A stretch of DNA of 56,948 bases, the filler included, from Streblomastix strix (Eukaryota), in assembly GCA_008636045.1 (NCBI GenBank). It is 3 parts of 3 records of this genome, joined end to end, with 100 filler letters (N's around TTAATTAATTAA, not from the genome) between each part and the next. Parts side by side here need not be neighbours in the genome. Positions count along the whole stretch, not along the records: positions 19,036 to 37,952 come from SNRW01000560.1; 2 more parts are not named here. One strand, 5' to 3'. The stretch's first letter is position 1, and every line of letters starts with the position of its first letter. Made by a program: the position numbers and the translations under genes. The notes beneath the pieces are model-generated. The model saw only the letters and a program-made list of their open reading frames with translations, was not told where the DNA came from and searched no databases. Positions 891 to 44,370 of the stretch are shown piece by piece.

Positions 891-931
891 TAATCTAACA
901 AAAAATAACTTATTTTTTTTTATAACATAAA

Positions 932-2107: not shown

Positions 2108-2128
2108 CCACCTGAGACATTAATATAA

Positions 2129-5465: not shown

Positions 5466-5699
5466 ATGTAATTAAACAAATGGTGATTTTCATTGTAGAT
5501 GACCATTTTTTGTTTTGTTAACTATATATAGCATATATAGTGCTGTTCCCTGATCTAGTTATTGCTCTCAAATACTCGCTCTAGGCTATGATACTGATTT
5601 TTTTACTTTTTTTTGCTGTTAGTAAAATCCAAATATATTATTTTAATAAGATCGATGATCTATTCATTTAAATTTATAAAACACATGTAAGTGAAGTGA

Positions 5700-13060: not shown

Positions 13061-13879
13061 CATATGAAAGAAAAAAAATTTAAAGCCAAATTTGGCTTTT
13101 TTTTTTAAAAAAATATTTAAATTTTATATTTTTTGAAATTCAAAGAAGAAATTTTTTTGGGATGTAATATTTCATAAATATGTAATATATAACTTAATTG
13201 TTATTATCATGCACTTCAATGATTTCGTTTGCATTTGGTTATTTAATAAATTAAAAAATAAGTAGAATTTTTTCAAAAAAAAATCAAAAAATGCAGATTT
13301 GTTGATTTTATACTAAAAATAAAAAAATCTCACCTTCTCATTTTTTGAGGATTTATATAATTCATATATATTATTATAATATATGATCTTTGCTCCACTA
13401 AAATATTAAATTATTAACACTTAATGTATTAAAATTAGAAAATAATATTATTTATAATAGCCGAAAATATTTTAGTTAAAAAAATTAAAATAAATTTTTT
13501 TTATAAATTTTATAAATATTTTAGCTAAATATTAATTGATTTGAATAATTTAATATTTATTACATACAACATATATGATGTAATTACAATATGAATATAA
13601 ATATAATAGATAGCTAGTTTCTGTATAACAAAACTAAAAATACCAAAAATTTTGAAACAAAATTTTTAATGATTTTTTGATATTAGCATGATTAATTCTA
13701 TGTTATTATTTTTATAGCGATAACTATTTTATTTCATATTTATATTTGTATAATAGATATATGCATGCGTATTATTAATATGTGAATTGAAACATTAAAC
13801 AAATAATTTTTATACAAACAATTATATTTGTTTTGTTAAAAAAAATATAATTAACAAAAATTCAGAGTTTATAAACCAA

Positions 13880-15520: not shown

Positions 15521-15760
15521 TGTATAATTAGTCAAAAGATAAGTATTTGCTCATTTTACAATAGCAATAAATTAATAAAAAAGTTTGTTGATTAAAAGTT
15601 GATTTATAAATATATGTTTGTTTTTTCTTAATACAAAATGAGTAACAATTATGATGATGCCGAAATCCATGAAAAAGTCTAATCAAATGATAATAATATT
15701 GATGAATAATTAACATAAAAATAAAAATATATACTATTAAATGAATTATCTTTATTATTT

Positions 15761-16154
15761 GATCCAAAATCAGTCAGAAAATATTTATTAATTCATCTTT
15801 TACTAATGTAAATATCATCACATGAGATGAATAGCGCGTTGTAAGTTCCACAATATAAAATTTCACGGTGAGATGATAAATTAATATTATATACTGCTAA
15901 ACATTTATAAGAAAAAAATGACAACAATAATTTAAACATTACTAAAGAAATTGAAAATTTAAAATTCATTTTTTTAATAATTTTGAACATTTTTGAACAT
16001 TTTTTGTATTTATTTCGTATCATTATTTTGATGATAAATATATAAAGAATTAGTGTAGATTATTATATAACTTAATGTTGTCAACTACGTTGACTTCCTA
16101 AAGGCTAATGCTTTGTATTCTGATTCTTTGAGTAATCCGATTGTCTCTCATCTT
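15761..16154. repeat. Inverted copy of the 5085-5465 repeat
   Basis: Reverse-complement alignment by eye. Confidence 0.92.
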
Positions 16155-18935: not shown

Positions 18936-19035
18936 NNNNNNNNNNNNNNNNNNNNNNNNNNNNNNNNNNNNNNNNNNNNTTAATTAATTAANNNNNNNNN
19001 NNNNNNNNNNNNNNNNNNNNNNNNNNNNNNNNNNN
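18936..19035. other. Artificial contig-joining spacer (44 N + TTAATTAATTAA + 44 N)
   Basis: Exact 100-nt spacer with a six-frame stop linker; an identical spacer lies at 37953-38052. Confidence 0.99.
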
Positions 19036-20440: not shown

Positions 20441-22613
20441 AATAAACAATGCTAGTTTCCATTAAACATTCTACGTTTGCTGCATAATCATTTTATTGGT
20501 TATATTATTTAATCGAAGAATTATAATATTATCATTTTGACAATAATGCAATGAAAAAAAAATTACATAATTATCAAACAATTTCGCTCTTTTTATTTTG
20601 AAAATAAATAATAGAATATTAAAAAAAAAGAATAATAATTTAAAAAAAATCAGTTTCAAAAAAATCTTAGAATATTGCATGAGAACTAAGCAGAATAAAT
20701 AAATAGCATACATACATTTAATTTTATTTATAGCGAAGAATAAGTCAATCATTCAAATTTTGAAGATTTCATACATTCAATTTATTCTGCTTATATACGA
20801 TCATTAAATTATATTTATCATTTAATATTCTTCTTTTTCATATTATTATTAGGTCAATCAAACTATATACTTCTTTAATTTCTACAATTGTAATTGCCCG
20901 AATTGGTGAGATTGGTAGAAATTGGTGATGTAGCTGATTCACTTCTAATGGACCAAAATATTAAATTTGAAGAAGGCCTATCTAACTTCAAAGCAGATAG
21001 AGGAACAAATAGAAATAATAATATAGTTAAATTATTTCTTAGGCTATTAGTTTTGTATTAATACCATAAAAAATTATTTTTCTAAATTGTTTTGCTTCAT
21101 TATTTTTGTATTGTTTTAATTTAAATAAAATTTTTTATATATATAATTTTTATGTTTCTGGTATTAATTATCATGAGTTATAATATTTCTATAAAGAAAT
21201 TTAGTTTTCTGATGAATTGAATTGAATATTGATCCAAATTAATGCTGTGCATTTATATAATTCTTTAAAAATTATTTTTTGCAATTTTCATTTGAGACTC
21301 AGAGACTGTCTTTAATTATTATAAATGATTTATTTAATTCTGCTATGAAAGTGGTATCTAAATAAACAAAATATGAATTAATATTTGATTCAATTTATCT
21401 AAGAAAAGATAGCAAAAATGTCCCATTTTTTAAAGTATTAAAATCGATCTCAGTTTAAATTTTATATCCAAAAGATTAAAATCTATCATACATCTATACT
21501 TATCTATAATATAAGCAAAATTTTTAAATATTTACATATATGATAATAAATTCACACTTTATTTCTAAAAAATATAAATTATGCTTAAATATGCTGCAAA
21601 AATCGCTTAAAAATGCTGTTAAATCGTTGTAAAGCACAGCACATTAAATTCTCGATGAAAATTAAATATTTTTTTTAATTTTATAACGATTCATCAAATA
21701 ATTCTATAACATATATTATTTTCATCAATAATGACACTAAGTACATATGTAGGCGGGGAGTAAATTGAGCACTAAAAATCATCTTTTTTAAAAAAAACTA
21801 ATAATTCAGACTAATAAACAATAATAACGATACATTTTAAAGAATAAAATTTATAATTTGTTTAATTGATAAGAATTATTAACTCAAATAATAAAATAAT
21901 TGCTTATTGACGGACAAAAATTTTGGCTTTTTTTTACAAATTTATTTATTGGACTATTTTAATAATAGCCCTTATAATTTTGCTCAGCGCACGTTTAGCG
22001 CTCTTAAAAGCGTTTTTGTCCAACACTATTGGTATTATAAAAAAGTTCTTGAAATTTGTACTCAAAGTTATTACCGGAATGCTTTAAACAGATATTGATT
22101 TTTTTGACAGTAAATATTCAAAACAAACATAATGTATAAGCTTCGAACAAATATCTAGTGCCTTTCTATTTAATAATATGTTAGATAGCCAGATCAAGTG
22201 ATATCTGAATTTTCAGAAGCACTAGAAACTTCAACCACTTTATTAGTCACCAAAAATTGGATTTTTCTACTTTTAAATACTTTAAAGGTTATATTCCAAA
22301 TTTTTTATTAAAAATACTATTTGATAATAAGACAAATAAGTAGCATAGAATGAAGAAGTTTGTGGTAAGTTCAAAATCGTATTTATTATAATCAATTTAT
22401 CCGCGATTTTGAACTTTTTTCGTCAATTTGCGAAAATCCCCAGAGCGGAAGCATATACATTAGTATGGTTCCTTTAATCATAGGAAAATGAACAAAATGA
22501 TGAAATAGACAAAGCGTGAATAAATTGATTATAATAAATATTGTTTTGAACTTACGGCAAACTTTCTTCATGAGCAATGCTAATTAATTATTAAAAATAA
22601 ATTAATGAGGGTT

Positions 22614-22820
22614 TCACTCAGTGATGCTTAATTAATCTTTGCTTTTAAGATATGCATCAGATATACGTATTATATCACGTATACTACTTAACATAGCATA
22701 TAGATTTTATACTAATTTTTTCTTTGTATCAATTTCTTTAATTTCATTATTAAGTTGTTAGCATTATTATTGTAATTTTGGTTCTATCTCTTTAAAATAT
22801 TCATACATTTATTTATCCAT
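22614..22820 (-). CDS. Viral ORFan, 68-aa coiled-coil
   Basis: ATG to TGA open in table 6 (MDKQMYEYFKEIEPKL...), caaaATG context. Confidence 0.65.
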
Positions 22821-22853
22821 TTTGAATAAATTACAATAAAAAAAATAATAATA

Positions 22854-23471
22854 TCAATATAAATCAAAATCATTGTATTCTTATTACTATTCTTCTTGGG
22901 GTTATTCTTGAATGATTTATTAAGGTTCCTGTTAAATTTATTATGGCTCTTCCATTTCAACTATCTATTTTGATTATTTGTTTCGTTTTGCTTTCAATTT
23001 ATATTTCTCTATTTGTTTGACAGCATCTTAATGTTATTGTTTAATAAATGAATTTTCAGTTCTCAACCTGATTAATTCTTCTAAATCAAGTTGAGGATTA
23101 GTGTAATTAATTTATGAAGTTTTTTATATTTTTACTACACTTTTTCTAATTTACTTCTTTAATGGTTTTTCTCGTACTTCGCTTATGGAATCATCACTTT
23201 CATTTTATTCATCTTATTGTTCTTAAGATATAAAATCTTCATCATCAATTTATTTTTAAGATGTTTTTTAAACATTTTTCTTTGGAGCAACCCCTCCTTT
23301 AGCTTATAACAGTAATTTATTCTACTATGTTTAAGTTAATTTTTTAAGTATCTTTTTCCTTTCTTCGAATGCTTTAATTTCCTTATGAATTTGGATGACA
23401 TATCCGTTGTCAAAGTATTCAATATTTGTTCCTTTCTCTATTAAATTCTTCAATGCGTGTTGTAAGTCCAT
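22854..23471 (-). CDS. Viral ORFan, 205 aa, K/E/Q-rich
   Basis: Open table-6 frame MDLQHALKNL...EYNDFDLY*. Confidence 0.8.
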
Positions 23472-23494
23472 TTGAATAATTTTAAATTAGGAAA

Positions 23495-24244
23495 ATGATA
23501 AAGGGCATAGAAAGAAACTAAATTCGCATGTCAGAATCCAAAAAATAAATGTCTGAGATTAAACATAAAGAATTAACGGATGAAGATAAAATAAGATTGC
23601 AATTGATCGATGAAGCTATCAGTAGGATTAAATCAATGCCAGCAGTCGATGAAACGACTAAAACCGAAGGTTCTGGCATAAATGCTAAACCTAAAGAAAA
23701 TGAAACATAAACCTAAAATGAAATTATTACATCAACGCATGAATAATTAATCCTTACAGAATAAAAAATTACTAAATATATGAGTAAATATAATAAAGAT
23801 AAATATAAACAAGTAGATAGAACAACTGCATAAGTTGAACCAGATGAAGTAGTTATAAATACTTATCTTTCTCATCCAAATCTCGCTGTAATGAAATTCA
23901 TCATAGAATGCTTATGGAAGACAGTAACTACAAGAAAAAGAGGAGATGATTTCATACTTTCATCAGAAAATTTTATTAAACTTTGGCCATTAATTACTTA
24001 AGAAAATGAAGATGATATTGAAATAGTATTAGAAGAACCATTGATGCAATCACATTCATGCATAGGTAAATTATATAAAAAGAAAGATTTGATTCGTGTG
24101 ATGGATGTATTAATTAAAAACGTTTGTATATCAGTTATTGATAATGTACTTTTTAACTCTATTGAGAAATTATATAGAATCAACAAGGATTTCGTTCGTT
24201 TATCTGATGCTCCTACATCAGAGATTACCAAAGATGATTTTTGA
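23495..24244 (+). CDS. Viral ORFan, ~231-249 aa (alternative ATG at 23549)
   Basis: Open table-6 frame that includes the track ORF 24041-24244 as its C-terminus. Confidence 0.8.
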
Positions 24245-24300
24245 TAATTATTTTAGATGTCTAATTTTTTACTATTTAATTATTTTTATTTATTACATAA

Positions 24301-24739
24301 ATGTTTTCACAATCCGAAATCGTTAGAGGAAAATTGCTCGAGAAACCTTAAAATATCGCAAAGGAAATTAACGTTGAACCAAATTATAAATGTGGTGATG
24401 ATTTCTATTAACGAACAGTAAATTAATAGAATAAACCATACTTTAAATTATTGAAACGTTATGGAAATAATCAATGGAATCCATAAACGGTTTATATTAT
24501 GATTGATAAAAAAAAATAATGAACATATTGAAGAAACAATTAAATAGTATTCTCAACAGATGAAAGAACTTAGTGATAGAATTATACGGTATTCAATACG
24601 TAACTTTACTGAAGCTGAAGCAACTAAATTTTATGAAATGAAACATGCCATTAAATAAATGTAAGAACAAACAAAATACAATAAGTACTGTTAATGCGGA
24701 GTTAAAAATGAAGTCAATTGTATATAATACTACGTTTGA
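24301..24739 (+). pseudogene. Viral ORFan with a frameshift in the poly-A run near 24510
   Basis: MFSQSEIVRGKLLEKP... continues as NEHIEETIKQYSQQM... in another frame after an A9 run. Confidence 0.55.
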
Positions 24740-24792
24740 TGACTGAGCATTTATGCCCGCCAACGATGTTGGTTATTATTTTTGCAATAAAA

Positions 24793-25563
24793 ATGGATCA
24801 ATAATTAAGTGATTTGGATATGATTGATGAAGATGAATAATCTATGTAATAAGAACAGGCAGTTAAATTAATACAATAGTAGGAATAGTAATAAAAATAG
24901 ATAAATGATAGGAATAATTTATTTTAAATCATTGATTAAGAAATAATAAAGTATTTTAATTATTTGAGTTAATTCTTTAAAAAAATCAAAGTTGATTTAA
25001 CTAATTTTGTAACATTAAGTATTGATTAATTTATAACAGGAATCAAGACATTTTTATATCCAATCTTTGCAAGTAAAATTGTTAAATAAGGTGGAACAAA
25101 TAACTAAATTCTATTAGCTAATGGAGATGTGATTGATAAGGATTAATTAGCGTATGAACCAATTGAAAATGCACGTTATTCAGCAATTGCACTGGGAATG
25201 TATGAGTAACGTATATGGGGTACATTAACAACATAAAATAGAAGAGTATTTATTTCACTGTAAATAACTCATTCGGATCAAAATACAGTATGTTAATCAG
25301 GATATACTTTATTCTCAATCGTTGATAATGCTATCAAACCCAAATTCAGTGGAACACCAACTAACATACCATTATATGCTGTTATGTTTGCGTATAAAAG
25401 ATGGAGTTATCCAATATTATGGAATGGTGCTATTCCTATTGATTGTTTTATTAATCCTAATGGTAATGTTATAATAAATACAATGTGTTAGTTAGGTTTA
25501 ACTGAAGATTTTTGTTTACAGATATGTGATTCATATGCTATTCATAATTAGTCGGCTAATTGA
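24793..25563 (+). CDS. Short fibre/spike-like protein, 256 aa
   Basis: Open frame with an N-terminal coiled coil, then FVTLSIDQFITGIKTF and KIVKQGGTNNQILLANG. Both motifs recur in the long fibre. The C-terminus is beta-rich. Confidence 0.75.
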
Positions 25564-25727
25564 CATATTTAAAAATAAACAAATGGACGAATTCAGTGAA
25601 ACTATCATCTATTCTCTGGAATAATTGAACATTAATTGGCATTCTATCTTTAAACAATTTGGGAGGCAGCGATCAAATATGCATGCTAATCAAAGATATG
25701 TAAATGAAAAATAATTATTTTTGCTTT

Positions 25728-27671
25728 TCAACCAGCATTAATCGTACTTCCGCCAAGCTCACCAATAACGTCAATATTTAACACTTATGGATCAGGATTA
25801 TTATCAAATGTAATTCGCATAAATGTATCACATAGATAATGCATCATTGGAGTAATAAACGCTTTAGTTGGATCAGGATAACTTCTCATAGCAATAAATT
25901 CTTTTAAATCATATTAGTTCTAATCTTTATTTATCTCTGAACTATCTAATACTCATTTAGTCAAATTACCATGTAAAATAACTTATATATTTGTTCTTGC
26001 ACCTAATTTTGAAGAATTATAGCCTCGCATAAATGAATCATCAGTAGCTAATTTCTATGCAAGCATTTATTTGTAAAGATATAGTGTTTTAGTAATTTTT
26101 GTCCCTTCAAATAATGTAGATACAGCAAATACATTTACATCTCCACTTCCATAGAAATTATCTTTATCAGAGCAGTTTATATTTTCAAATGTAAGTGAAT
26201 GATATAGATCTGATGGAGCACTAACGACATCTTAATCAACGAAATAATCAAACATTAATCCAATAACGGTTTGTGTTAATGCTTCATATGGTTATGGAAC
26301 TACATGTCGTTAATCAATAATCAAATCAAAATCATAAAATAATATAGGATAGAACCATGTTGGATACTATGGCATGGCAAACGTCATAAATAGTGATTTA
26401 ATATTAGAGAATGACATAATACTTTACATAACACCACTTGTATCAGTAAAACCACTAAATGGGAAATTTGATGATTAAGATCTAAATACTTAGGTAGGGA
26501 AATTGACTATTCTTTACTATCTAATCATGTTAACTATTGCAACTTCATTTTCAACATTAAAACATATGTTCTATATCTCTAATTTTTCAAATTTTGCATT
26601 ATTAATTTAACTAATACTGTTCTATGGTACCCTATCAGCAGCTGCAGCATTTTACGTATTGACTATTCTTACGTTAAATTTTTTATAACTAAATAATCCT
26701 TCTGCAGTAGGCTCCTTTAATAGATAAACTGTGTCTGGTTTCTCAGGTGGAATCATGTGATAAGCCAAGTGTTAGTTTCTTACCGTATCTTATTTGTTAA
26801 GTCAAACTACCTTCAAATCCTACAGGTAATCTTATATCCAAAGTTATAGAAAAAGTGAAGCGTTATTCCTAGTAAGAACAGGAAATGAGTTAAAGATTGG
26901 ATTTAATTAATTAAGATCAAGAACACTACTAAATGTAATATCAAATGGAATTTTTAAATGCTATGGAGTTTTATCACATCTTCTATCAATATCACATAGA
27001 GGTATATCAATAAATATTCGACAATGACATTTATCATTAGTGATACTTTCTAGAGGAGAAACACTAACGCTATTGCTAGTACACAAATCACTCAAGGAAT
27101 TAGAACTAATTGCAGCTTATTCTCTAGCATATATTGAAGTTCCCCATAAAGCAGTGGCATCACGCATCAATTGAAATTGGTGAAATGGTCCACACGCAGT
27201 GGAGAATCCAAGCCAAATACGTAATCGATCAGAATTATCAAATCCTTCAGCTTATTTTCCATAATACTTTTATGCGCCTTATGTCATATCTACTGTTACA
27301 TTAGTTTATGAATCTACTTTACCATTGAAGTTAATTTTCTTATTTAAATCATCTTCTTCCTCATTTGATTCATTTAATTATATCGCTAATGTATCTTTAG
27401 GTATGGCAATTGTCCAATTCACTTAGCATGTTTATACCATTGAACAAGTGGCTAATCCCCTTGCTCCTAGTGGTGCTCTAGTATATTTAACTCCACTAGA
27501 TGTTAGTTCATTTACTGGTTAATCAGAGAATTATTGCTTGGAAATTGAAAGTGATCCTGGATGAATAGTTAATGTTTTTAATATATCACCTAATTACATA
27601 TATCCAGCAACATAATCAGAGTGTTACATTTTTTACAAACTGGCTAGATAATCACTAGATTTGAATGACAT
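25728..27671 (-). CDS. Probable major capsid protein (double jelly-roll), 647 codons, with two premature TGA
   Basis: Single frame from ATG 27671 to TGA 25728, with in-frame TGA at 26802-26804 and 25953-25955. Beta-strand-rich (RIWLGFSTACGPFHQFQL, NIKSLFMTF, FDLIIDQRHV). Size and context fit a Maverick MCP; the fold is inferred. Confidence 0.75.
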
Positions 27672-27738
27672 TTCAATAAAACAAAAATAACTGTACGCTG
27701 ATGACGATAATGATAATAAATTTTTATATTAAATCAAA

Positions 27739-27948
27739 ATGGGTTTCTTCTCTGGAATAGCGAATTTTGGATCGAAAATTTTAGGCGGTGTTAAGAAAGC
27801 AGCGTAATGGGTAGCACCAGCATTACATAAAGTTTTATCTACTATCTGCGGTCCGGTAGGAATGATTTATCCTGGAATTGGTGGCGCATTAGGTGCAGGA
27901 GCTAATCTCGCAGGTGCAGTTGATCGATTGGTAAATAAACGTAATTGA
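27739..27948 (+). CDS. 69-aa Gly/Ala-rich amphipathic peptide, candidate membrane-penetration or core protein
   Basis: MGFFSGIANFGSKILGGVKKAAQWVAPALHKVLSTICGPVGMIYPGIGGALGAGANLAGAVDRLVNKRN*. caaaATG context; divergent from the MCP. Confidence 0.85.
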
Positions 27949-27968
27949 CGTAACTTATCTTTATAAAA

Positions 27969-30092
27969 ATGAACAGCTCATTATCGTAACAATAAATCCG
28001 AACAGTTAGATAGTTAATCACTAACGATATTGCTTACTATATTCAATATCAGAAACGATCTAGTTCAAGTAATGGAATGATATCAAATGATGAGTATCAA
28101 TTATTCATAGATAATAACAATGCATTAGTCTACGCCGCTAACAATTAAATCGTCGATGATATGACATCAGATTACGCATTAAAAATAGAACCAAATGGAC
28201 TATTAACAATAAAGAATTTGAAGGTGATTAATTTTGATTTTGTTGCATAGATTAATTAGTTGATTAATTAAGTGAATTTACTATAACAATCAATTGGAAC
28301 AACAGAATAGGATACCACTGATATAAAAAATGATATTGATACAATTAATTAAGAATTATCACGATAAATTCATTTCAGAGGATATTATTTATTGAATACA
28401 GATATATAAAATTTACATAATTCCGCTAATGGTGATTTTGCTTTTAGTGCTGAAAGTGGGACAGTTTGGATGTTTGATGCATCTTGGTATAATAGTGGAG
28501 ATATTGTTCCAGATTAAGTAACACCAGCTAGTGATGCAACACCATTATCTGATGGTACAGCAACTGCAGGAATTAGTACAGAATATTCACGTGGCGATCA
28601 TGTTCATCCATTAAATATAACAACTACTATTCCATCATAGGATAGTGCAAGTGGATCTGTTGGTACAAGCAATTATTATGCTAGAAACGATCATTCACAT
28701 ACAATTAATATTGAGACTAATGCTTCAAATATTCCAATCGCTAATGGTGTTGGTGCTAATGGAACATCAGCTTTTTATGCTAGACAAGATCACGTTCATC
28801 CATAGTAATTAACTTATGATGGTAATGTTACAGCAACTAAGTTCATTAAAACTGGCGGGACAGTTAATGATATATTGCTAGCTGATGGTTCTACTAAATA
28901 ACAATATTATGCAAGCAAATTATATCAAGCTGTTGATTAATCTTAATATATTAAATTATGTAAGTTTAATGCTTTAAGTTTTTCTACTGATATTTCAATT
29001 GAATTCAAAGTAGCTACTAGAAGTGGATTTGGATAAATATAATTTAATTAACATTGGACTTAAGATTTAGGGAGAAATAACTATTAGTATAAATTTATTC
29101 CAACATTAGCTTCTGGTTTTAATAGTGCATGGATCTTATATTTTGGAACTGATTTAGATAGATATGGAGAATTATGGAGTCCAATAGATAGCTATTCTTA
29201 TAATACTGTTATAAATTAAACAGATATAAGCGCTTTTTAGGGTAATATTACTGAAATATTAACCACTGACGCACAACAAGCATTACCTACAGGGTAAAGT
29301 AGCATATAACAATTATTTCTAAACATATATAATAGTTTATAAGTTAATCCAACTGGTAATAATTATAATTAAGGCATAATAATATCACGGTCTGTTAATA
29401 ATTATAGTGGAATATTTCTTGGTTGTGATCCTCTATCAACTACAGGACCATTAGCAGATTAATGGAGTATAGTAAATGCAAATAATGGTGAGTTAAGGAT
29501 AGGAGTTAATGATTAAATTACTGCGGTTAATTAAGGACTAATGATATCAGCTGATGGATAAGCTTTAACATTTAACGGTAACTAATTCGTTGATTTAACA
29601 ACAGATTAAGCATTAGCAGGAATAAAAACATTCCATAAATTAGTATAAGTAATTCCATCAGCTAATGGTACATTTAACGAAGGGATAAGAATAAGTAGAC
29701 ATTCAACAAATTAATGGAGTAATATATAATTTGGTAGCGGTCCAAATTCGAATAGTGGTAAGATTGATAACTAATGGCTGGTAGGATCAACTGGAAATAA
29801 TGGTGCAAATCCTCTTGGTTTTGTCATCATAAAAGCAGGATAAGAAGGTTAGGCTGATAGAGGATTATAAATATCTGCTGATGGAAACGCATTATCTTTC
29901 AATGATACTGTAACAGCAGGAAATGGTGCAAATAACGGAGCCACAGATAGGTCAGTTAATTATCCTGCATGCAATCAAATCTTATGGGGTGCAAATAGTC
30001 TTAGAACAGATGGTGGTTTCTATAGTAATGGAACTATTATATTCTGGAGAGCCCATGCGTTATAATTTGATCCGTACTACTAAGGATAATGA
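27969..30092 (+). CDS. Long phage-tail-fibre-like protein, 707 aa
   Basis: Fully open table-6 frame. Three repeats YSRGDHVHP/YARNDHSHT/YARQDHVHP; FIKTGGTVNDILLADGS; two repeated domains (NQGIIISR/NEGIRISR ... GLxISADG). Confidence 0.85.
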
Positions 30093-30111
30093 GGATTATT
30101 TTTGAAATTAA

Positions 30112-30570
30112 ATGGAAAAACAGTTAACGTAACCGTTCAAACAATTATTCAATGAATTAATCAAATCTCACTTTAATGATATCGATTCAATTAAAGCTAC
30201 AATTGAAGCATTATAAAATTTGTTAAAGAATGATATAATAGAATCAATCCATCTATTAATCTAAGAATTAATGAGAATCAATAAAATGTTTACTAATCAA
30301 TAGCAATAATTATAAAATATAAAGAAGATGGTAGATGAAGAAGACTATAAAAATAAGTTATTTAATGAATAGGATAAGTACTTCAAAAATAAATATCTAT
30401 TAATCAAAAAGTCATTAGATCTAAACAATTAACCATAACAAATAAAGAAGTACATTATCTCTGATGCTAGTGAAGAAGAAAAATAGATTTACAATTAATT
30501 TGTGAATGATGAATAATACAGTAACTTCGTCAATTATTATCAGCTTAATTTAAAATAATAAGATTGCTGA
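30112..30570 (+). CDS. Viral ORFan, 152 aa, helical
   Basis: ATG to TGA open in table 6. Confidence 0.75.
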
Positions 30571-30778
30571 TATATTATATATATTTGATTATCTCTTCAA
30601 TTTTATCTTAGATTGGTTCAACGAAAGTATAATGTTATTTGAATTATTCATACAATTATTTTTCTTCAATTGATAGATCATTTATCTCAATTAATGCTTC
30701 AAATATTTTGAAAATCTCATAGTCAGACGCATTATACTTATCACCAATGCTTCTTGCTAAACTATACAATTATTCCAT
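30530..30778 (-). CDS. Viral ORFan, ~82 aa
   Basis: MEQLYSLARSIGDKYNASDYEIFKIFEAL... The 3' end overlaps the convergent ORF, so the true end is uncertain. Confidence 0.5.
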
Positions 30779-30788
30779 TACATTTAAT

Positions 30789-31181
30789 TCAAACAATTTT
30801 TTTTTATGGCAAATTTAACATTTTAAGATAAAGGATGTATCTCCAATGAGTAGCTAATTCCAAATCTTTATTTGATATTGCTTCATTCAGAAATGTTTCG
30901 ATTTATTCAACAAAAAATTACGACCAATGTATGCTAGGTTAATTCTTATCCATTTTTCTTTTGTAAAAGTATTGTATAATGTAAATCGTTATATTTAATG
31001 GGACCAATACTATATTAAAATAACTCCATAATGTTTTTACAATATTAACAGTGTCCCAGAATTTCTCCGGTATGGATACTTATATGATTGATGTTATAAA
31101 ATTAACGCCATAGAACATGTAATTCATTATCCCCATGATTAACGATAGCAATTTCATTGCCGCCGTAGGTAGTATGGTCAT
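30789..31181 (-). CDS. Small viral membrane protein (2 predicted TM helices), 130 aa
   Basis: LLSLIMGIMNYMFYGVNFITSII and LWSYFNIVLVPLNITIYIIQYFY, followed by KRK. Confidence 0.7.
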
Positions 31182-31197
31182 TTTATTATTTTTGAAA

Positions 31198-32217
31198 ATT
31201 ATATTATAAGAATTATAAGATATAACATTTACTAATCAGGATCTATTGAACGAATATAAAACTAAGCCATTAACGAAGAATTCATTGTTCCTGATTAATG
31301 TAAATCATTATATTGTGGGAGCTGTTGGAAGTGGTAAAACAACATTAATGTGCAAGCTAATTGTGATATATAAAAAAATCATTAATCCATTCATATAATA
31401 CTTCTCGAATTATGGTGCAGATGAAACTAAGGCATTAAACCTAAACAGTAAGAACATTAAATTAACAAATATGACTTATGGAGAAGCAATGACATTTCTA
31501 CCTGAATTTGATGAGATAAAATACTCTACTAAAGTGACGTATACATGGTATAAGATGAATGAATAAAAATAATCATACACTAGCGATTTCATTAAACGAA
31601 TGGAAGAGTAAATCCTATAAAATAATGAGATAAAAAAGAATGAAAAACTTAATGATTATCTTAATAGAATTGCTAAACTATTCAAATAAAAAGTAATTGA
31701 AACCATTAATACATACAGTTAATCAACCAAGATATTGAGATTTGAAATTCCTGCATTAATTCAAAACGTTAGTTACCAAAAGAAATACAAAATTACTGAT
31801 GATGCATAAAATGCAGTTATTAAAATAATGAAAATACCTATATTAGAAAAAGCTTAATTACTCAATACATTAATGCTCTTGGATGATATTGGATCTAATG
31901 CAGACATCTAACGATTCAGTTCATAATTATCTAAAACAGTTACCCATCTCATTAGTGATTCTCGTCATTCAAAAAATACTATTTTCTTTATAGCTTAACT
32001 TCCAACTTATTTGTTTAAGACAGCTATGATATTAACCCATGTAATTTGCTTAGGTATAAACATCGGTGAGAGTGATCTTAAACAGGTTTATGAGGAAAAT
32101 TCCATATAAAATTTAAATTTTGATGAATTCATGATATTATAAAGGTCATTAAAGAAATATGACTTCATCATTCTGAACAAATGGATTGGTTAGTTCTAAA
32201 TTTTGAAAAATAAATGA
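31198..32217 (+). CDS. A32/FtsK-HerA-type DNA packaging ATPase (~339 aa; no ATG before Walker A)
   Basis: Walker A YIVGAVGSGKT, Walker B LMLLDD, arginine-finger/Gln motif DSRHSKNTIFFIAQ (Q encoded by TAA). Confidence 0.92.
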
Positions 32218-35200
32218 TCAATTAAATGTGAAATCTTTTGAAGAAAGGCCGAAAATAAATGGACAACATGATTAATTCTCTAGCACTGGCATTTTCGTAT
32301 GGATTCCCGTGATTCTATTTTTTTCGATAGATAAATAACTTATCTAATGATTCTTCTAGCCCAATCTCATATTAGTGCATTTCGTTATTTTTCCTTCATT
32401 AATGCAATCGATTATCTATGCTTTAGTGATTTTGTTAGTCTTCTAATTAACTCCTTTTAGTTTTATTTTTGAATTTCCATTGTAATTTGTTTCAATCATA
32501 TAATTTTTAGGAGCTAATGCCACCATTGATATTCCTTATCTTTCGATCGATAATCCAAGGATTTTATTTTCATCATATACATCGCCTCTAATCGTGGGAA
32601 AGTAATACTTAGCATTATCGTTATAAAAATCTCGATCACTAATCACAGCTTTAAATTACTAAGGAAAATCTTCATTAGGATTACCATTAATCGCCCAATA
32701 AGCTGAATCAGTATCTCCTTCAATAAAATGTATTTTATTCATATCTAAGCATTTATACATGAAATTACATATGAAATTTAGATACCAATATTTAACGTTA
32801 TCCAATACAAAAAAAAGCTACTTATAAAGGTGTTTTATAGTTACAGTGTTCTGGATTCATTTATACAATATAACTGTCTTCAGATATCTTTTGTTCATCC
32901 ATGAAGGCGTTAGATCTAATTGCTCTTTCTGTCTATTTCTTATTCATTATTTTTACTTCATGATATTTCTCAGTGTTCATTCCATCACTACCATAAGAAC
33001 TATTCATAACAATCTTAAAGAATTATTCCTATCCATTATTCTCATCTAATTTTGCTTCTATTCTAATTTTAGTAAATTCCTTAATAAATGAATTGAATTA
33101 ATCATGTTAATTGAATAGCACTTTCTATTTTGCATCATCTATAATAAAATGGCAATCATCAATCAAGAACCATTGGTAATATGAGCTAAATGCCATGAAT
33201 TCTCCCATCGTTGATGTAAGATTAGTTAGTTTACGTTATTTTTGATCAGAGCTAACATTATTGTTTTTCATATGATTATACATATAACTACCGATAGTTC
33301 GTTCATCTGTTGTGAATTCATAATTGCTTAGGATTGGTGGAAAATTAATGATATCGTTAATGTAATTCTAATCAATGTGGCCTTTAACTTCTGCTAGGAA
33401 TTATTGACCATCAGATGTAAATCTCTTTTTAATATTAATTATTCGTAATATTGTTTATTTGGAATGGTCATTGTTAGCAGAGCTCAAACCTACGGTTTCT
33501 CCCATAATCTTACCTGTTTATGATCCATACATATACATTTTTCCACCTGTACACTTAATAAATTAATGTGGTTCTGATGACATAACACTAGGATATAATG
33601 AATTGAAATCAACACCAACTACATGAGTAATTCTATGATCAGTTGTCAGAACTGTTACCTTCTTATTTTACTTATCATACCATAATCGTTTTATAAAATC
33701 AATTCCTGATCTATTGACTCGATGCATTACATTTGATAATCCACCTGCGATCCATTTTCTGATTAAATGATATACATCAATATCTGTTAGATTAGTTGGT
33801 GATCATCTTATCATACAATATTTATGTAATTATATGAACAATTTACTTATATTTTTATCTTTATCCGAGCAGAAGCAATTACAGTATAAACAACAGGGCT
33901 AAACATTATCTTTTGAATGACTCTTTGAATTATCGATTCTATCTAATGTTGGCTTATTATTCCATGTAAATTTACATCCACATATTTTGCAGTTAGATTC
34001 ATTGAATAATCGTTTGAAATATTCATAATCACTATCTTTTATACTATTTTTTATATCAGTTTTTTTTATATTTATCTTATTGAATATATCCTTTCACTTT
34101 GCTCTACAAATATTGCTCAGTTAAATGAAATTTCTACGATTAATCAGTAAAATTAGGATATATACCATTAATGTCAAAATCTTCATACGCTTTGGCATAT
34201 TTGATAGCATTAGAGCATGCAGCCATACTCATGAAACTGAACATATCAATCTTATATTAAAATTATAAGCTAATCAATGTCATTAGTGGGTTAACCATTA
34301 CATACGTATCTTATTCATCAAAGAATTGTAGATAATCTCATCTATTTTTAAATCGTTTTGCTTCATCTAGATAAATCTAATAATCCTTCTAACTAATTTT
34401 GGTTTTCTTTAATGATGAGTTGAAATCTTCCATTGAAAATGGCTCTGATTTACTTAGTACTTCATTAACGTTATCAATGTTGAAAAATTCATAGGGAAAT
34501 AAGCCTTATTTATCGTCGTAACCATCGCAAAAATCTTTTGCTGCTTACTTTAATTCCGTAGGTTAAAGATACGTTAACATATCAACAAGTTTCATCTTTA
34601 AATTCAATTTTTTATGATGCACAATTACCAATTTAACTGTTGATGGGCTACCAGTATAATTACTAATTGTCCAATCTTTGCATTACATATACGATATGAT
34701 AAATAATAAATCAAATCTTGAGCTATTGAACCCAACAATTGGCACTTCAATTGAATATGGAATTTTCTCATCAATTGTCCCAGCTGCTGTTAAATATTAA
34801 TTATCAGCATTAACTTATTCTGCTTCTTTAAACAATTAATTTAACCATTAAACTATGAAATCGTTCCCATCCTATTAGCTAAAGAAGATTTTCTTAATAT
34901 CTTATTTGTTACGGATAGTTGATGCAACTGATAGGGGAAATAATTCATACATTTAATAACTTGATTTAACAAATTTTTTATTAACGATTTTAGGAACAGT
35001 TTCAAGATCATACGTGATGAAATATTATGTTGGTTTATATTCATTTTCTCTTCCATTAGCTAATAGATATTGATAAGTTTTATTCTGCATGATATGTGGA
35101 CAATATGGTTTTTATACATAATCCAGTTTAACTTTCTTAATTATTTTTCCACCATTATTCTCACATTTAATATTGTGTTTTTCATAATCTCTTGAGTAAT

Positions 35201-36856
35201 TTTTATCTTTAGGATCGAACGCTTTTGAATTACAGTGTGGGCAAAATTACAATCCCATTAATGCTTATTTATTAGCTATGGCAAATGCATGCGCTATCTT
35301 ATTATTTTCCCATATCGATTCAACAACTAATATATCAATTGTCTTAGATTATTATTGCACGATTGTTTCATTTTAATTAATTTCATTATAATCGTTGATT
35401 TGTTCACATTAATGCATAATCTACAATCCTCTATAATAATTCTTATGTTCATTATCGTAGTAGTAAATGTCATGGTTAATTTTTAACTTTTATGATACAA
35501 TTTACGCATATTTAGTTATATCTAATCCATCAAATACTTTCAATAAATCAGTCATTTATCTACTCTTTGAATCGAATGGTAGCTCTAATACTTAAACTAA
35601 TAGTTACTTGCTAATGCTAATAATTTCATCAGGAAAATAACGTTTTTCCTTCGAATCAGAATGTAATGCTTTTGCTATTGCTTCCATATAGCAGTTGTTA
35701 TTATTTCCAGTATTTTATATATAACATTTTTGCGACCATTACAATGAAAATCGATCAATTCTTTCATACTAGCTCCAACAATTTATGGTTATAGGTTATA
35801 CGTTTTGATTGGCATGGAATAGATAGCTATATATAGTTATCTTGTGCTATCTAATGTGAAATTCTATTTATTAATTATATCAGCTTTAATGTATTGCTAA
35901 TACTCTTCAATGTCGTCTTAATTTTATATGACTTTAGGAGAATGTTCTTATATACGTGTATCTCTAGCTAAAATATATCCATAATCAACTTAAACTTAAT
36001 CATTCTAATCATGTTTATATTCTTCATAAAAGATTCTAAAATTAAATTGTATCTTGAACGCTTAATGGTGTTGTGCATCATAAATTTCATTAACGTACAT
36101 CTCTATACCGGATAATGATTAGATAACATTATTATAATGTAATTGACTTAATTATCCCCGCTGCTCATCCATTTAATTTATTATACGTTCACGATTGAAG
36201 CCTGTTTTTGCGCCATCAACTGTATCAATAAATTACTCCATTTTCTCTGGTTGAAAATACAATATAACGCCTGCATCATTATCTATTTAATTAACGTCTT
36301 TTCCTTTATACTGATTAATTTTATCTTTAATCTCTTTATTTTATTAAGCAATAATTTGGTATTGTAGATTAGCTTCCTATTCTTCTTCCATTATTCTTCT
36401 GGCTTATTCCTATTCTTCTATGATATAATTAGTCCAGAAATCGTTAGCTTATTATTACTCTTATTATTAACGATATTCCTATAAATCTTATTCATAATAA
36501 TTAGAATGATAGTGTGTTAAATCTTAATGTAATTATCAATTTTATTCATCTATTTCATAATAGAAGATATCAGCTTATTTCAGCAATTATTCTCTACGAT
36601 ATTCTTATAAATCTTATTCATATTGATACTATTTGAAATGCAATCTCTGATTGATATTCAATGAATTATATTAATGTATTTATTTTAGATGTGATTTCAA
36701 TTCACTATAGTTACTTCTTCCTGATTTCTTATAATCAATCTTGTTTAAATATTCAATGAGTTATTGTTTAAGCAAATATATTTTTAATGATTCATTAACG
36801 TTTTTGTTGTTGATTTTGAGCAATTTAACGATCTCCGCTTTCCTTAGTTAAACCAT
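32218..36856 (-). pseudogene. polB: Protein-primed family B DNA polymerase (pPolB) with C2HC zinc finger and HNH-like insertion; several frameshifts and TGAs
   Basis: ExoI YDLET, ExoII GFNSSRFD, GLFPYE, PolA VDFNSLYPS, PolB KIVMNSSYG, PolC EGDTDS, KLKGV; CPHC...HNIKC; TLDRIDNSKSH..DNV..CC..CN. Confidence 0.95.
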
Positions 36857-36903
36857 TTGTTAAAAATAAAAAACAAATATAGAACAAAAACAATTTAGAC
36901 GTC

Positions 36904-37952
36904 TCATTAAAATTATATCTCTAACAATAAATTATTATACATGTCCATATATTACATAGGTATTTTTCTTCCAAAGTTATCATATAATGTAAACACTAAC
37001 GTTTTGTTCTATCCTACTAAGCATTATTGACTCATCATATTCTATCCTCATAGTACTGGCGCTTCAATTAAATTTTGTTTAAAGCATACATTTGAGAACC
37101 CATTACCACCAACTGATTACATAGTTATTCCTTATAATTAATTAGATACGCAAATTATTAGCATTTATGGATACTCTAGAAAATTCCCTATATATGAACA
37201 GAATATTGGTAAATCAACTTCTAAGCTTTCATTATCATGTTTAGTTTAATAGAACCATACTTCTAGATCAATTTACTTAATAGCTGATGCTAAATTAACA
37301 AATTAATTAGCGCTATTCTCATTCAATCCATCATATAGATCTTATCCACCAACTAATTGAACATATAGATTTGGTGACACTATTATACGATTAGCGAACC
37401 AATAAGTGTTATTTTAATAACAGTAATCAGTCACAACTAATGGGATAAATTAACCATAGTAATTTGTTCTTCCAACTGCTGTATAAATATCTTACCATTC
37501 TCCTATAGATAATGCAGGTAATGAATTGATAATTCTAACTGGAAATGTATTAATATTATTAATGATTTATTACATTGTTTATTGTTATACGTTAATTGGT
37601 TAAGCATCAGATGTGGTAAATGTTCCATTAGCATTTATATCAACTTACTTACCAAATAAGTATCTTATTGATAGGCCATTCCCTTATGTAAAAGATTTTG
37701 GTTCAATTGATGTAATATAATTATTTTATGTTGGGCAATATAATCGTACTAATCCAATCATTCGATATAACTCATTAACTGTGGAATCTAAGATCCAGTA
37801 GTGATAAAGAAATGCATCGATCCTAAGATTAATATAATTGATTGCTGAATTCACTATATCTTATCCATAATTCTAGTTTAATGAGAACATATTATTTTAT
37901 AATTTTTATACATGCTCGTTAATTGCATTATTAAAGCATATTGCCCCACTGT
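36904..37952 (-). CDS. Probable minor capsid (penton) protein, 5'-truncated by the contig end, frameshifted near 37075
   Basis: About 290 open beta-rich codons. The C-terminal VSVTLYDNFGRKIP...LLLEI resembles the terminal strands of Polinton/virophage pentons. Confidence 0.6.
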
Positions 37953-38052
37953 NNNNNNNNNNNNNNNNNNNNNNNNNNNNNNNNNNNNNNNNNNNNTTAA
38001 TTAATTAANNNNNNNNNNNNNNNNNNNNNNNNNNNNNNNNNNNNNNNNNNNN
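37953..38052. other. Artificial contig-joining spacer
   Basis: Same structure as 18936-19035. The contig lengths 18935/18917/18896 look size-sorted, so there is no synteny across spacers. Confidence 0.99.
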
Positions 38053-40005: not shown

Positions 40006-40737
40006 TTTATCCTGATTCTTTTATAATAAAGAAAAAATAATTGAATAAATAAATAAGAAAATTATAAGTGAATGAATATAAAGTAGGTTATATGGTGTGC
40101 AAAATATGCGGGAATGGAGGAAAAGTGTGTTTTTTCAAGAAAATAATCCTTCTTTTTGTTGGATAAATATCTTTATATATATAATGTGATTTTTAAAAAA
40201 TTAGGTGCATTATCTATTGTAGTTTTATAAAAAAATGTTAATGATATATTTTATTATTTGAAACATCAACGAGAAGTGATGTTTAAAAAAAAATTAACTA
40301 TTAATTAAGAAACAACTATATTTAGAAATAAGTAGATTTTTTGAAAGATTGTTATATAATATAAGTGTAATAGTTGGCATATATCTATTTAGTGTACTGT
40401 TTTGTTGTTCAATCGCATTTTAAAAAATTATAAATTAGTATCATATGACAAATTTTAAAATAATATTGATTATATTATATAATTAAATTTATAAATTTGT
40501 TATTGAAAAATCCCTATTGTTGAAAATTTATAATGAGCATATTGGTAAAATTATGTTTCAAACTTGGAATTTATAAAACTTTTAGCTCTTGTCTTTCCTT
40601 TCTTACGTAATTATTTTATATTTTTATATCAATAATTCTTAATATTTCAAATTTTACTAATTCTCAAAATCCAATACATTCTTAAACTGCTCAAAATGCT
40701 GTTTATTTTCTTCTGTGATTAACTAATTATAATTTTG

Positions 40738-41011
40738 TATGTCAATAAATAATAAATATCCGATATATACATCTTTTGAATAAATTTTCTGTTTTGTATT
40801 ATATCAAATTGTAAATATAGAGAAAAAAACGCACTTAATTCATTTTTTAAAACATTAAATGTACAGCCTTATCGGCATTTGTGTATTTGCTATTATAGAT
40901 GTATGCTGTAATTAAAGTTGTTTCGTATAATATGAACATACAAAAAATGTAAAGTATCGCGAATGTCATCGGTGAGGGGCGCTTTGACAGTCATGCCCTA
41001 TCAAGCTTGAC
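40738..41011. repeat. Second copy of the 490-890 repeat
   Basis: Alignment by eye; the first hairpin is degenerate in this copy. Confidence 0.8.
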
Positions 41012-41827: not shown

Positions 41828-44370
41828 TCACACCAACTTACAGAAAAGCGTTAGCAAAGACATACGTTATCCGCTAATCCCCATGAATCTTTTTGCTTGT
41901 GAGAACTTTTTCTCAATTCCAGCTTCTGAAGAAGGAATTGCAAGAACACTATCTATAAAATCGATGAAAATTTTAATCATTGGATTTGATTTATTTTGAC
42001 ACTGCCAATATCCGATTTAGTTATCAATGAGCATCTCATCATCCATATCACCATATTTTCCAGCCCAAAAAAGAACAGCTTTATTTGTTAAATATTATAA
42101 TAACATTAATTTTTCGTCATTCAACGTTTAATGTATCATTTAAATTACTTGTTTTTATTTAAGATCATCAATTGTACTTGTAAGAAATGTAGCTGTTGGT
42201 GAATTAATACAAGATTTACCTGTGATGATTTGATTGTGAATTGGTGTACCTGTAACAGAAAATTTAGGAAGCAATTCCGGTTAAATATCTCGAAGGATTT
42301 GGATTCTTTGAATTGAACTATTAGATATTCTTTCAATTTATTAAGTATCTTCAATATCTTTTTTCATTAGAGAATTTGAAAATGGCGATTCTTGTTTGAT
42401 TTCATATTATTAATTAATCTACGAAACAATTTATTGATCTTCTATTTCATTCAAATCTAGACCGTTGATGATTAGTAGTTTCCAATTTTATTCATAATCT
42501 GATTTACGTAATTGATATGTTAAATGGTTTATTTCTTCCTCATTAAATTGGATGTGATGACTCAATTTCAACCTTATATTTAGAGTTTATTCCTATTATT
42601 TAGCTTAATTCTGATTTTATTAATGTCTTGATAATGCGTAATCTTTCAATTTTTAATGATAAAAGTAAATAGAAATTCTTTTAAGGTAATCTAGCACCTT
42701 GAATTCCAATTGATCTTTTGAACAAGAATAAAACATGGAGCAGTGGGATCTGTTATTTGAATTTGAGATATGGCTAGTTGATATGCATTTTCAATTTTTA
42801 ATTTAAGTATTCTATGCTCGGGATACTTATCAGGTTTCTGAGGAATTTGAATTGATTTGATATCAAAGAATGGTATAGATGGAATAATTTCTGAAACATA
42901 ATACTTTGATACAAAAGTTAATTTTAAAGACTAAGTAGTAGAACTGATCATTGCCAGATTTCTCTATTGCATCAATTTCTTCCCTGAGTAACAAAATGCT
43001 AAATCACAAGCAAATAAATCTATATAATCATCACCAAAAATGTAAAAAAATATTTTCTTGCAAAGTGTTTTGATGAATGAGAGCCATGGTTCATAGCTAA
43101 AGATTGTAACTAAAAGATGATAATAATGAATAAGTAGAAAAACAGCTAATGGGAAAACATTTGAGACTTGTGATGTATTAGACTCAAGAACACTCGTTGT
43201 TTCAAATAAAGGCTTAGTCAGATAGTAAATATGTGTAGTAAATTTAACGGAATTATATTTTCTACTTGATTTCAATTATATAATTTCTTCAGAATGATCC
43301 ATTACTTGCTCTGCAACGAGAAACATTCCAATCCATCTTGTTTTGCCATAAGATTTTAAATAAATACTAAGTTCATTAGAATTCGATTATGAATGTAATG
43401 AACTTATATCTTCTTCCATGATTATTACTATAGCATAAATGTCGTAATGCATATCAATAGCATTTTTTAGATCTCTGTCAAGAAAATGATTAGCACATCT
43501 GTTTTGAATTAGTTTTGACAACCGTTAGGGAAGAAATATAGAGTAGTTTTGCTTAGAAAATGGTGATAATGCTGACGTGAACGATGAACCACCATTTGTT
43601 GTGGCTCCTCCAACCCCAATTTTGAATTGCTGCAAATATATTATTGTTTAAGTAACAAGTTTTGACAATCCATCAACTGTACAAAGTCTAGTATATATTG
43701 ATAAAAGTGTTGGTTCAGGAGAAATTAATGGATAAACTAGATACACTGGAACAGCATGAATATGAGACATCATTCCTGCTTCAAGAATAAGAGTGCCTTT
43801 CTTATTATAAAATACTCTCAACCTTTCAATACATTTCGAATGTGCTTTCTAAACCATTTTTTCTTTTAGTTTATAAATAGTTATCTTTGGTTATAAAGAT
43901 TCAGGAGTTTCATTTGGAAATGTCTTTTATAATCCTAATGAAGTTTTGATTACTCTAAGCATTTAAGACGAAATGCACACTTCAAATGGTACTTCGTGAA
44001 CCTTATGCAGATCTTCAAGTACATCAATAATAGAATCTGAACTTAACTGAATTTTCAAACTCTGTAATTATCTTTTAATAATCATGTTCGATTGAATCAA
44101 AGTTATCTAGCCTACTATTTCATTCACAAAAATTTCCTTCATATTTTACATAGCAATGAATATTTCGGAGGCCTGACTTTTTGCTACTTATCAATTCCCC
44201 TTCACTATTACATTTTGAATAGACGCAAACTTTATAAACACCTTTGCAGAAAAACTCACATCTAATTCAAAATTCTTTCGCTAAAAACGAATGAAGTGTT
44301 ACTTAAATGTATTCAATATCGCATTGAGGTTCTGATTCTTAACCGTTTAGAAAGGAAAATCTTTCCTACG
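41828..44370 (-). pseudogene. hAT-superfamily transposase, near full length, decayed
   Basis: RCANHFL (CxxH), KTRW, VLES and the dimerization motif LAIPSSEAGIEKKFS. Several TGAs and frameshifts. Confidence 0.85.

What the first reader, a model, noticed from the sequence alone, without database searches (positions are those of the whole stretch)
22614..37952. Endogenous Polinton/Maverick-like virus written in the host's TAA/TAG=Gln code
Seen: about 14 tightly packed intron-less ORFs that open only in table 6, including pPolB and an A32 ATPase whose conserved Gln is TAA-encoded. Known: pPolB + A32 ATPase + jelly-roll capsids define Polintons/PLVs, and Mavericks are abundant in the metamonad Trichomonas. 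Inferred: a virion-forming virus adapted to, and host-restricted by, a reassigned nuclear code. It is invisible to standard-code annotation, and about half its genes are ORFans.
Basis: partly seen in the sequence, partly recalled or inferred. Interest (0 to 1): 0.9.

Follow-up and report, generated by a model that had tools for sequence, protein, structure and literature searches.

The report
Decayed Polinton-like virus in oxymonad genome
This 15.6-kb block is a broken copy of a multi-copy Polinton-like DNA virus whose genes read TAA/TAG as glutamine, likely integrated in the genome of a termite-gut protist; such viruses were already reported in that host, but this capsid type is likely a second, undescribed lineage whose relatives use the standard code.

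Summary
The observation largely holds. Thirteen packed gene units at 22,339-37,952 open only in table 6 (296 of 362 Gln codons are TAA/TAG). They include a protein-primed PolB, an A32-type ATPase whose conserved Gln is TAA (CAG in a standard-code relative) and a likely double jelly-roll capsid.

Corrections: as assembled the copy is broken (6 in-frame TGA, 3 polymerase frameshifts). It is cut by a scaffold gap, so the right end, any integrase and any protease are unseen. The penton fold is unproven. All named close homologs are from the oxymonad Streblomastix strix, not Trichomonas.

The cluster recurs: 20 of 350 homologs fuse two element genes, and related DNA covers the element in runs from three studies.

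The headline (table-6 endogenous viruses in S. strix) is already published (PMC10120064). Possibly new: this ~650-aa capsid looks separate from the published Trichomonas-type one. Its relatives sit on standard-code 22-23 kb metagenome contigs, one with a primase-helicase. The probable left end is a 245-nt palindrome. Virion formation and host restriction are untested.

The parts
22339..22583 (.). Imperfect ~245-nt palindrome at the probable left end; starts AGTAGC
   Evidence: DNA fold -51.4 kcal/mol, z -9.35, 0 of 200 shuffles as stable. X1 summed depth 0-8 at 22178-22319, ~3e4 from 22320; loose ends at 22337 and 22339 in X2; an X2 contig links it to ORF2. Terminus is inferred.
22614..22820 (-). 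ORF1, 68 aa, variable slot
   Evidence: skipped or replaced in contigs of X1, X2 and X4
22854..23471 (-). ORF2, 205 aa, charged/coiled, unknown
   Evidence: No Pfam or PHROG hit; weak match to L001:2444-3082, E 0.002 among 166 ORFs
23495..24244 (+). ORF3, 249 aa, unknown
   Evidence: No significant family
24301..24742 (+). ORF4, broken, unknown
   Evidence: Two frames; indels against other copies
24793..25563 (+). ORF5, 256 aa, possible second short fibre (inferred)
   Evidence: Shares a 41-aa stretch with the 707-aa protein, 34%, E 1.6e-4; no family hit
25728..27671 (-). Major capsid protein, likely double jelly-roll, 647 codons; in-frame TGA at codons 290 and 573
   Evidence: 190 homologs, best 120 all S. 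strix, up to 86% identical; Foldseek top 10 all double jelly-roll capsids; Atlas capsid clusters 0.95 for homolog P0009
27739..27948 (+). 69-aa peptide with amphipathic N-terminal helix; possibly membrane-lytic like adenovirus protein VI (role recalled, inferred)
   Evidence: Homolog L001:1191-1424, E 2.5e-9; hydrophobic moment reached by 79 of 2000 shuffles
27969..30092 (+). 707-aa repeat-rich protein, probable fibre/spike (inferred), intact
   Evidence: Three RxDHxH repeats and four G-x-x-I-S repeats; middle part variable among copies; no significant Pfam, PHROG or PDB hit
30112..30570 (+). ORF, 152 aa, coiled, unknown
   Evidence: joined to fibre and ATPase in gene model P0170
30530..30886 (-). 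ORF, 118 aa, unknown
31198..32217 (+). A32-type packaging ATPase; conserved Gln is TAA at 31996; homologs' start codon absent, two invariant Arg changed
32218..36907 (-). Protein-primed PolB: N-terminal region, vOTU-like Cys/His (35702, 35297), Zn finger, exonuclease, endonuclease VII/HNH insert (33806-34084), palm. TGA at 36536, 34338, 33803; frameshifts near 35712, 34073, 32809
   Evidence: Pfam PF03175 E 2.3e-12; PHROG 1035 E 1.9e-12 and 1907 E 2.7e-11; motifs; frames; vOTU and terminal protein inferred from the layout in 10.1101/2024.03.18.585575
36904..37952 (-). Penton (minor capsid) candidate; TGA at 37048; 5' part lost in the gap
   Evidence: 14 of 14 homologs S. strix, some longer at the N-terminus; fold unresolved
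37953..38052 (.). Scaffold gap (N44, 12-nt spacer, N44) that cuts the element

Best explanation
The block is one broken copy of a multi-copy Polinton-like dsDNA virus family whose genes use TAA/TAG for Gln, likely integrated in the nuclear genome of Streblomastix or a close oxymonad. Shown: table-6 coding, pPolB, A32-type ATPase, recurrence of the cluster, lesions in the assembled copy. Likely: the large protein is a double jelly-roll capsid. Inferred working cycle of the active form: a linear ~16-20 kb genome is copied by pPolB primed from its own N-terminal domain, which the vOTU-like domain would cut off. Host ribosomes translate the genes with TGA as the only stop. Capsid, penton and fibre(s) would assemble, the ATPase would package DNA, and the amphipathic peptide would help cross a membrane on entry. 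Integration would need an integrase in the missing right end or supplied by another element. Integrated copies then decay by point mutation and internal deletion. The lineage likely came from standard-code relatives, fixed TGA stops, and drifted CAA/CAG to TAA/TAG under AT pressure; that would now stop expression in standard-code hosts.
For: Code. The host uses it too: a kinase exon has 5 of 5 Gln as TAA/TAG. Host lineage: 120 of 120 listed capsid, 14 of 14 penton-candidate and 36 of 36 ATPase homologs are S. strix. Capsid: Sputnik E 8.3e-4 and mavirus E 8.8e-4 lead 10 of 10 top Foldseek rows that are double jelly-roll; BFVD best hit is a pithovirus capsid, E 5.8e-4; Atlas. Recurrence: 20 of 350 homologs join two or more element genes; neighbouring locus tags on contigs of equal length pair capsid with ATPase or penton candidate; four runs of three studies cover 30 of 30 bins; in X1 flank contigs have depth 7-8 and the element sums to 2e4-1e5, except 2e3 in the fibre middle. 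Integration: high-copy DNA abuts a low-copy flank. Decay: stops fall on Trp (54 of 57), Trp (8 of 8 non-gap) and Gly (40 of 54 non-gap) columns; deletion-type joints in other copies. Relatives: L001 shares capsid, ATPase and peptide, L002 the capsid, and both use TAA/TAG as stops (9 of 15, 8 of 13 ORFs).
Against: The capsid model is weak (pLDDT 50, TM 0.16-0.21) and the wide VIA search gave best Z 5.1 to an unrelated protein. No integrase, protease, second terminus or target duplication was seen. The penton and fibre calls have no significant hit. Lesions may partly be assembly errors: PMC10120064 documents this for such elements, only contigs could be laid, and at some sites no contig carried the window's letter. 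Capsid deviation (12 of 213 conserved columns) ranks only 17th of 58, so this copy is typical rather than unusually decayed. Summed contig depth is no copy number and cannot exclude free genomes. The tree is unrooted, so the direction of the code switch is not shown.
Confidence: 0.85

Rival explanations
1. The locus is an intact, possibly active provirus or a free viral genome scaffolded beside host DNA, and the stops and frameshifts are errors from collapsing many copies.
For: PMC10120064 removed such stops by polishing. The contig ends inside the element. Other copies differ by one base at two frameshift sites, and some window letters have no supporting contig. One bin at 22249-22319 has no cover in any run.
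Against: Collapse errors should not also remove the ATPase start and invariant residues. The capsid's end branch is longer than that of its nearest named homolog (0.16 vs 0.067). Most listed homologs are also short: 23 of 120 reach 620 aa, though some are contig-end partials.
Confidence: 0.08
2. It is simply a member of the published Trichomonas-type 'Metamonada' capsid group (820 hits in S. strix), with nothing separate about it.
For: Same host and code. The Atlas puts a Parabasalia-rich cluster at 0.96. The supplement table is cut, so its S. strix rows could not be seen.
Against: The published reference capsids are about 553-586 aa against about 650 here. Six top homolog tags are absent from the held supplement text. 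Three short motifs of the published capsid occur in 0 of 352 proteins. The profile finds only 211 cluster representatives, and 9 of 10 looked up are unnamed or hypothetical.
Confidence: 0.25
3. TGA is also read as Trp (ambiguous code), so the in-frame TGAs are sense codons.
For: Two of three tested TGAs sit in Trp columns.
Against: The third is in a Gly column, a TAG also sits in a Trp-majority column, 37 TGG codons are in use, and frameshifts coexist. TGG to TGA is the expected transition in a genome with one stop codon.
Confidence: 0.03
4. A capsid-less linear plasmid or self-synthesising transposon, or a chimeric assembly.
For: Weak fold scores; no free copies found in IMG/VR.
Against: Capsid matches from three libraries; a packaging ATPase; the same module on independent contigs.
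Confidence: 0.04

Closest known systems
Metamonada-group endogenous viruses of Streblomastix strix, Trichomonas and Entamoeba (PMC10120064, cluster MMPC_40)
   Same: Endogenous, double jelly-roll capsid, hundreds of copies in S. strix, TAA/TAG=Gln, long-term host association already proposed
   Different: Capsid here about 650 aa and apparently a separate family (not aligned directly). The passages read give no gene map, decay or ends for S. strix elements.
Polintons/Mavericks (Polintoviricetes), including Trichomonas vaginalis Mavericks
   Same: pPolB with vOTU-like and endonuclease-insert domains, A32-type ATPase, capsid, size class
   Different: No RVE integrase, Ulp1 protease, paired TIRs or target duplication seen in the visible 15.6 kb. 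Metamonad elements remain ungrouped in a 2026 framework (10.64898/2026.06.19.733378).
Standard-code metagenome elements L001 and L002
   Same: Capsid (E 1.6e-36, 1.6e-30); L001 also ATPase (hhalign 99.4%) and amphipathic peptide
   Different: Standard code; L001 has a DUF5906 primase-helicase-like gene and no pPolB in the 18.4 of 23.0 kb held; Gp10_C-type fibres; no long palindrome in the parts held
Nematode/oomycete pPolB2 with HNH insert (10.1101/2023.08.22.554363)
   Same: HNH-type nuclease inside pPolB
   Different: That paper calls the insert unique to oomycete and nematode pPolB2. Whether this one is homologous or independent was not tested; inserts at various sites are known.
Virophages (Sputnik, mavirus, rumen virophages)
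   Same: Best PDB fold hits; rumen virophages pair pPolB with a virophage capsid (PMC4409740, search listing only)
   Different: Hits are weak, no Pfam virophage capsid family, no protease seen, no helper virus known

Membership tests
Polinton-like virus (broad) | [quoted passage not shown] | tested here: met
   agreement across libraries, low-confidence model
Polinton-like virus (broad) | A32-like packaging ATPase | tested here: met
   Pox_A32 in 4 of 13 members; motifs
Polinton-like virus (broad) | Single jelly-roll minor capsid | tested here: inconclusive
   pLDDT 34; no hit; weak C-terminal match to L002:4545-8525 (E 0.003) is at noise level
Polinton-like virus (broad) | Multi-copy genome of 14-40 kb recurring as a unit | tested here: met
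   At least 15.6 kb
Polinton-like virus (broad) | Virion formation | not testable with these tools
   No particles or expression data
Polinton/Maverick (Polintoviricetes) | Protein-primed PolB | tested here: met
   PF03175 E 2.3e-12; broken in this copy
Polinton/Maverick (Polintoviricetes) | RVE integrase | tested here: inconclusive
   No hit among ORFs scanned; right end missing
Polinton/Maverick (Polintoviricetes) | Ulp1/adenain maturation protease | tested here: inconclusive
   No hit; right end missing
Polinton/Maverick (Polintoviricetes) | Terminal inverted repeats and target-site duplication | not testable with these tools
   Gap at 37953; no genome held; left-end 24-mer occurs once in the window
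Metamonada capsid group MMPC_40 | TAA/TAG=Gln in S. strix copies | tested here: met
Metamonada capsid group MMPC_40 | Capsid clusters by sequence with the Trichomonas-type capsid | tested here: inconclusive
   Leans against; no direct alignment was made and the supplement was cut
Linear plasmid / capsid-less transposon | No capsid or packaging genes | tested here: not met

The most novel reading that the evidence does not exclude
An undescribed lineage of gut-protist Polinton-like viruses that crossed a genetic-code barrier: a standard-code ancestor entered a TAA/TAG=Gln oxymonad, swapped its replicase for an endonuclease-bearing pPolB, and spread to very high copy number with palindromic ends and no integrase of its own. 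The milder part (a second capsid lineage distinct from the published one, with standard-code relatives) is about 0.65 likely; the full reading is less so.
Probability: 0.15. Interest if true: 0.7.

Novelty: new member of a known kind. Interest (0 to 1): 0.4.

Why it matters
Metamonad Polinton-like viruses are still unplaced for lack of genomes. This locus gives a gene map for one, and links it to standard-code relatives with a different replicase. That pair makes testable how a eukaryotic DNA virus changes genetic code with its host and whether the code then locks it in. The code observation itself is not new.

Tried and rejected
No whole genome held, so no genome-wide copy census. IMG/VR scans: 0 loci in 7 of 7; first JGI scan 0, second 2 loci. 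These scans back-translate peptides and may miss table-6 DNA, so blanks are weak. Phage collection tblastn with the polymerase: no match. No RNA holder listed. Penton: fold, Atlas, PDB profile and BFVD uninformative; a cleaned profile did not recover the L002 candidate, and an antisense ORF scored better than any real one. The fibre profile found nothing in L001/L002. PDB sequence searches with capsid, ATPase and fibre gave nothing significant. VIA wide search best Z 5.1, not informative. ORF5 as a protease: no family hit, and it shares a motif with the fibre candidate instead. TGA=Trp rejected. Integrase search in the records behind L001/L002 was not possible. Earlier-findings look-ups were empty. 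No complex prediction was run. Literature searches; 'Streblomastix' plus 'polinton' returned 1 paper. Subscription journals are not covered.

Full report
1. What is in the sequence. The window is an AT-rich scaffold with two gaps, at 18,936-19,035 and 37,953-38,052. Under table 1 only 2 ATG ORFs of 90 aa or more exist in 57 kb, neither in the element. Under table 6, 13 gene-like units cover 14,482 of the 15,614 nt from 22,339 to 37,952. GC is 27.5% against 23.9% outside. In 14 coding segments 296 of 362 Gln codons are TAA or TAG. A host kinase exon beyond the gap (Pkinase E 1e-12) has 5 of 5 Gln as TAA/TAG, so element and neighbouring host DNA share the code.

2. The code call is not circular. 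Close homologs were themselves annotated in table 6, so I used distant ones. The ATPase motif Gln at 31,996 is TAA and aligns with a CAG codon in L001. L001 and L002 end 9 of 15 and 8 of 13 listed ORFs on TAA or TAG, so they use the standard code. In 10 capsid homologs at 20-26% identity, Gln fills 62 of 336 cells under TAA/TAG codons against 4.0% elsewhere; their translation table is not on record.

3. Gene identities. Polymerase: PF03175 E 2.3e-12, PHROG DNA polymerase E 2.7e-11, and an endonuclease VII/HNH insert E 1.9e-12. Exonuclease and palm motifs, and a Cys/His pair upstream, fit the TP-vOTU-Exo-palm layout described in 10.1101/2024.03.18.585575 (passages); the vOTU and terminal-protein calls are by inspection. 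ATPase: Pox_A32 in 4 of 13 alignment members, not the window copy. Capsid: the model is weak (pLDDT 50), yet the ten best PDB rows are all double jelly-roll capsids, two at E below 0.001, TM 0.16-0.21. BFVD agrees (best E 5.8e-4), and an uninterrupted homolog falls next to Capsid_N and Sputnik-type clusters in the Atlas at 0.95. The wide VIA search was uninformative. The penton candidate stays unproven. The 69-aa peptide has a homolog in L001 (E 2.5e-9) and a modestly amphipathic helix (79 of 2000 shuffles). The fibre calls rest on repeats and position only.

4. Host. All 120 listed of 190 capsid hits, 14 of 14 penton-candidate hits and 36 of 36 ATPase hits are named Streblomastix strix, at up to 86-90% identity. 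Four of the five runs that hold the stretch are termite-gut metagenomes. The host is therefore likely this oxymonad or a close relative.

5. This copy is broken as assembled. The capsid has TGA at codons 290 and 573, the penton candidate at 281, the polymerase three TGA and three frameshifts. The ATPase lacks ATG at the homologs' start and has changed two invariant Arg. The three stops tested sit on Trp, Gly and Trp columns, which fits mutation, not TGA read-through. Against over-reading: capsid deviation ranks 17th of 58, and PMC10120064 shows such stops can be assembly errors. Only contigs could be laid, so this is not settled.

6. It recurs as a unit. Twenty of 350 homologous gene models join two or more element genes, for example ATPase-fibre, peptide-capsid, penton-polymerase; order varies. 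Four runs from three studies cover 30 of 30 bins at 80% likeness. In X1, which may be the source sample and is not independent, flank contigs with no differences have depth 7-8 while the element sums to 2e4-1e5. That is no copy number, but points to a large family. Joints that skip up to 6.5 kb suggest deleted copies.

7. Ends. High depth starts between 22,320 and 22,390 after a low-copy stretch, with loose ends at 22,337-22,339 in X2. From 22,339 the DNA forms a ~245-nt imperfect palindrome (z -9.35). One X2 contig ties it to ORF2 with a different gene slot between, so it belongs to the element rather than being an unrelated insert. Its right arm is much less covered than its left, which I cannot fully explain. 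The AG-rich start resembles Polinton termini (recalled). The right end is lost in the gap, so integrase, protease, TIR pairing and target duplication are untested.

8. Relatives outside the host. A capsid profile finds 211 cluster representatives; of 10 looked up, 9 are unnamed or hypothetical proteins, several on 10-22 kb contigs. Two loci were fetched. L001 (18.4 of 23.0 kb held) shares capsid, ATPase and peptide and carries a DUF5906 primase-helicase-like gene; L002 (14.4 of 21.8 kb held) shares the capsid. In an unrooted tree the 14 S. strix-type capsids lie on one side of a 100/100 branch from 9 others. This fits one entry into the table-6 lineage but does not show direction.

9. Comparison with print. 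PMC10120064 (passages, section 9, supplement searches; the main table was cut, so its S. strix rows were not seen) reports 820 capsid hits in S. strix and states that these elements use TAA/TAG=Gln. Its reference capsids are Trichomonas-type, about 553-586 aa. The family here is about 650 aa, six top tags are not in the held text, and three motifs of the published protein occur in 0 of 352 proteins. I did not align the two directly, so 'separate lineage' is likely, not shown. A 2026 preprint leaves metamonad elements ungrouped (passages). HNH inserts in pPolB are known (10.1101/2023.08.22.554363, passages and section 8). 10.64898/2026.10.13.758929 (passages) added nothing on this host. PMC4409740 was seen as a listing only. 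bioRxiv supplements were closed and may bear on novelty.

10. Verdict. A real, decayed member of the Polinton-like viruses. It works like a pPolB Polinton, but membership of Polintoviricetes is unproven. The code story is already known; the residual interest is the probably distinct capsid lineage, its standard-code kin with another replicase, and the terminal palindrome. Interest 0.4.

Noticed in passing
window 13333-15716 (-) and 857-2142 (+): Two inverted copies (78-87% alike) of another decayed repeat; 13936-14502 matches the pPolB N-terminal region of homolog P0136 (24%, E 2.5e-8). Possibly remnants of a second pPolB element.
   Followed up: partly
window 21113-22035: A separate repeat of moderate summed depth (1e3-8e3 in X1) just left of the element, divided from it by low-copy DNA.
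   Followed up: no
window 41831-44190 (-): Two overlapping table-6 ORFs ending in a motif like the hAT transposase dimerisation domain (recalled); no Pfam hit at E 0.001.
   Followed up: partly
window 46295-48663 (-): Host protein-kinase gene in pieces, probably exons, in table 6 (Pkinase E 1e-12); a 33-nt tandem repeat at 46392-46686.
   Followed up: partly
window 2173-2954 and 10508-11289: Direct repeat about 0.8 kb, 86-93% alike, 8.3 kb apart.
   Followed up: no
window 5084-5475 and 15751-16154; 479-880 and 40726-41011: Further dispersed repeat pairs, inverted and direct.
   Followed up: no
L002 4545-8525: 1326-aa protein next to the capsid whose two ends weakly resemble the penton candidate's ends (E 0.003-0.007); could be a penton with a very large insertion, not significant.
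   Followed up: partly
L001 12983-13603 and 16864-17155: Exact direct repeat of at least 300 nt and shorter repeats flanking the primase-helicase-like gene, consistent with a swappable replication module.
   Followed up: no
window 29132-29762: Middle of the fibre candidate is far less covered than its ends in run X1, less clearly in X2 to X4, suggesting a variable segment among copies.
   Followed up: no
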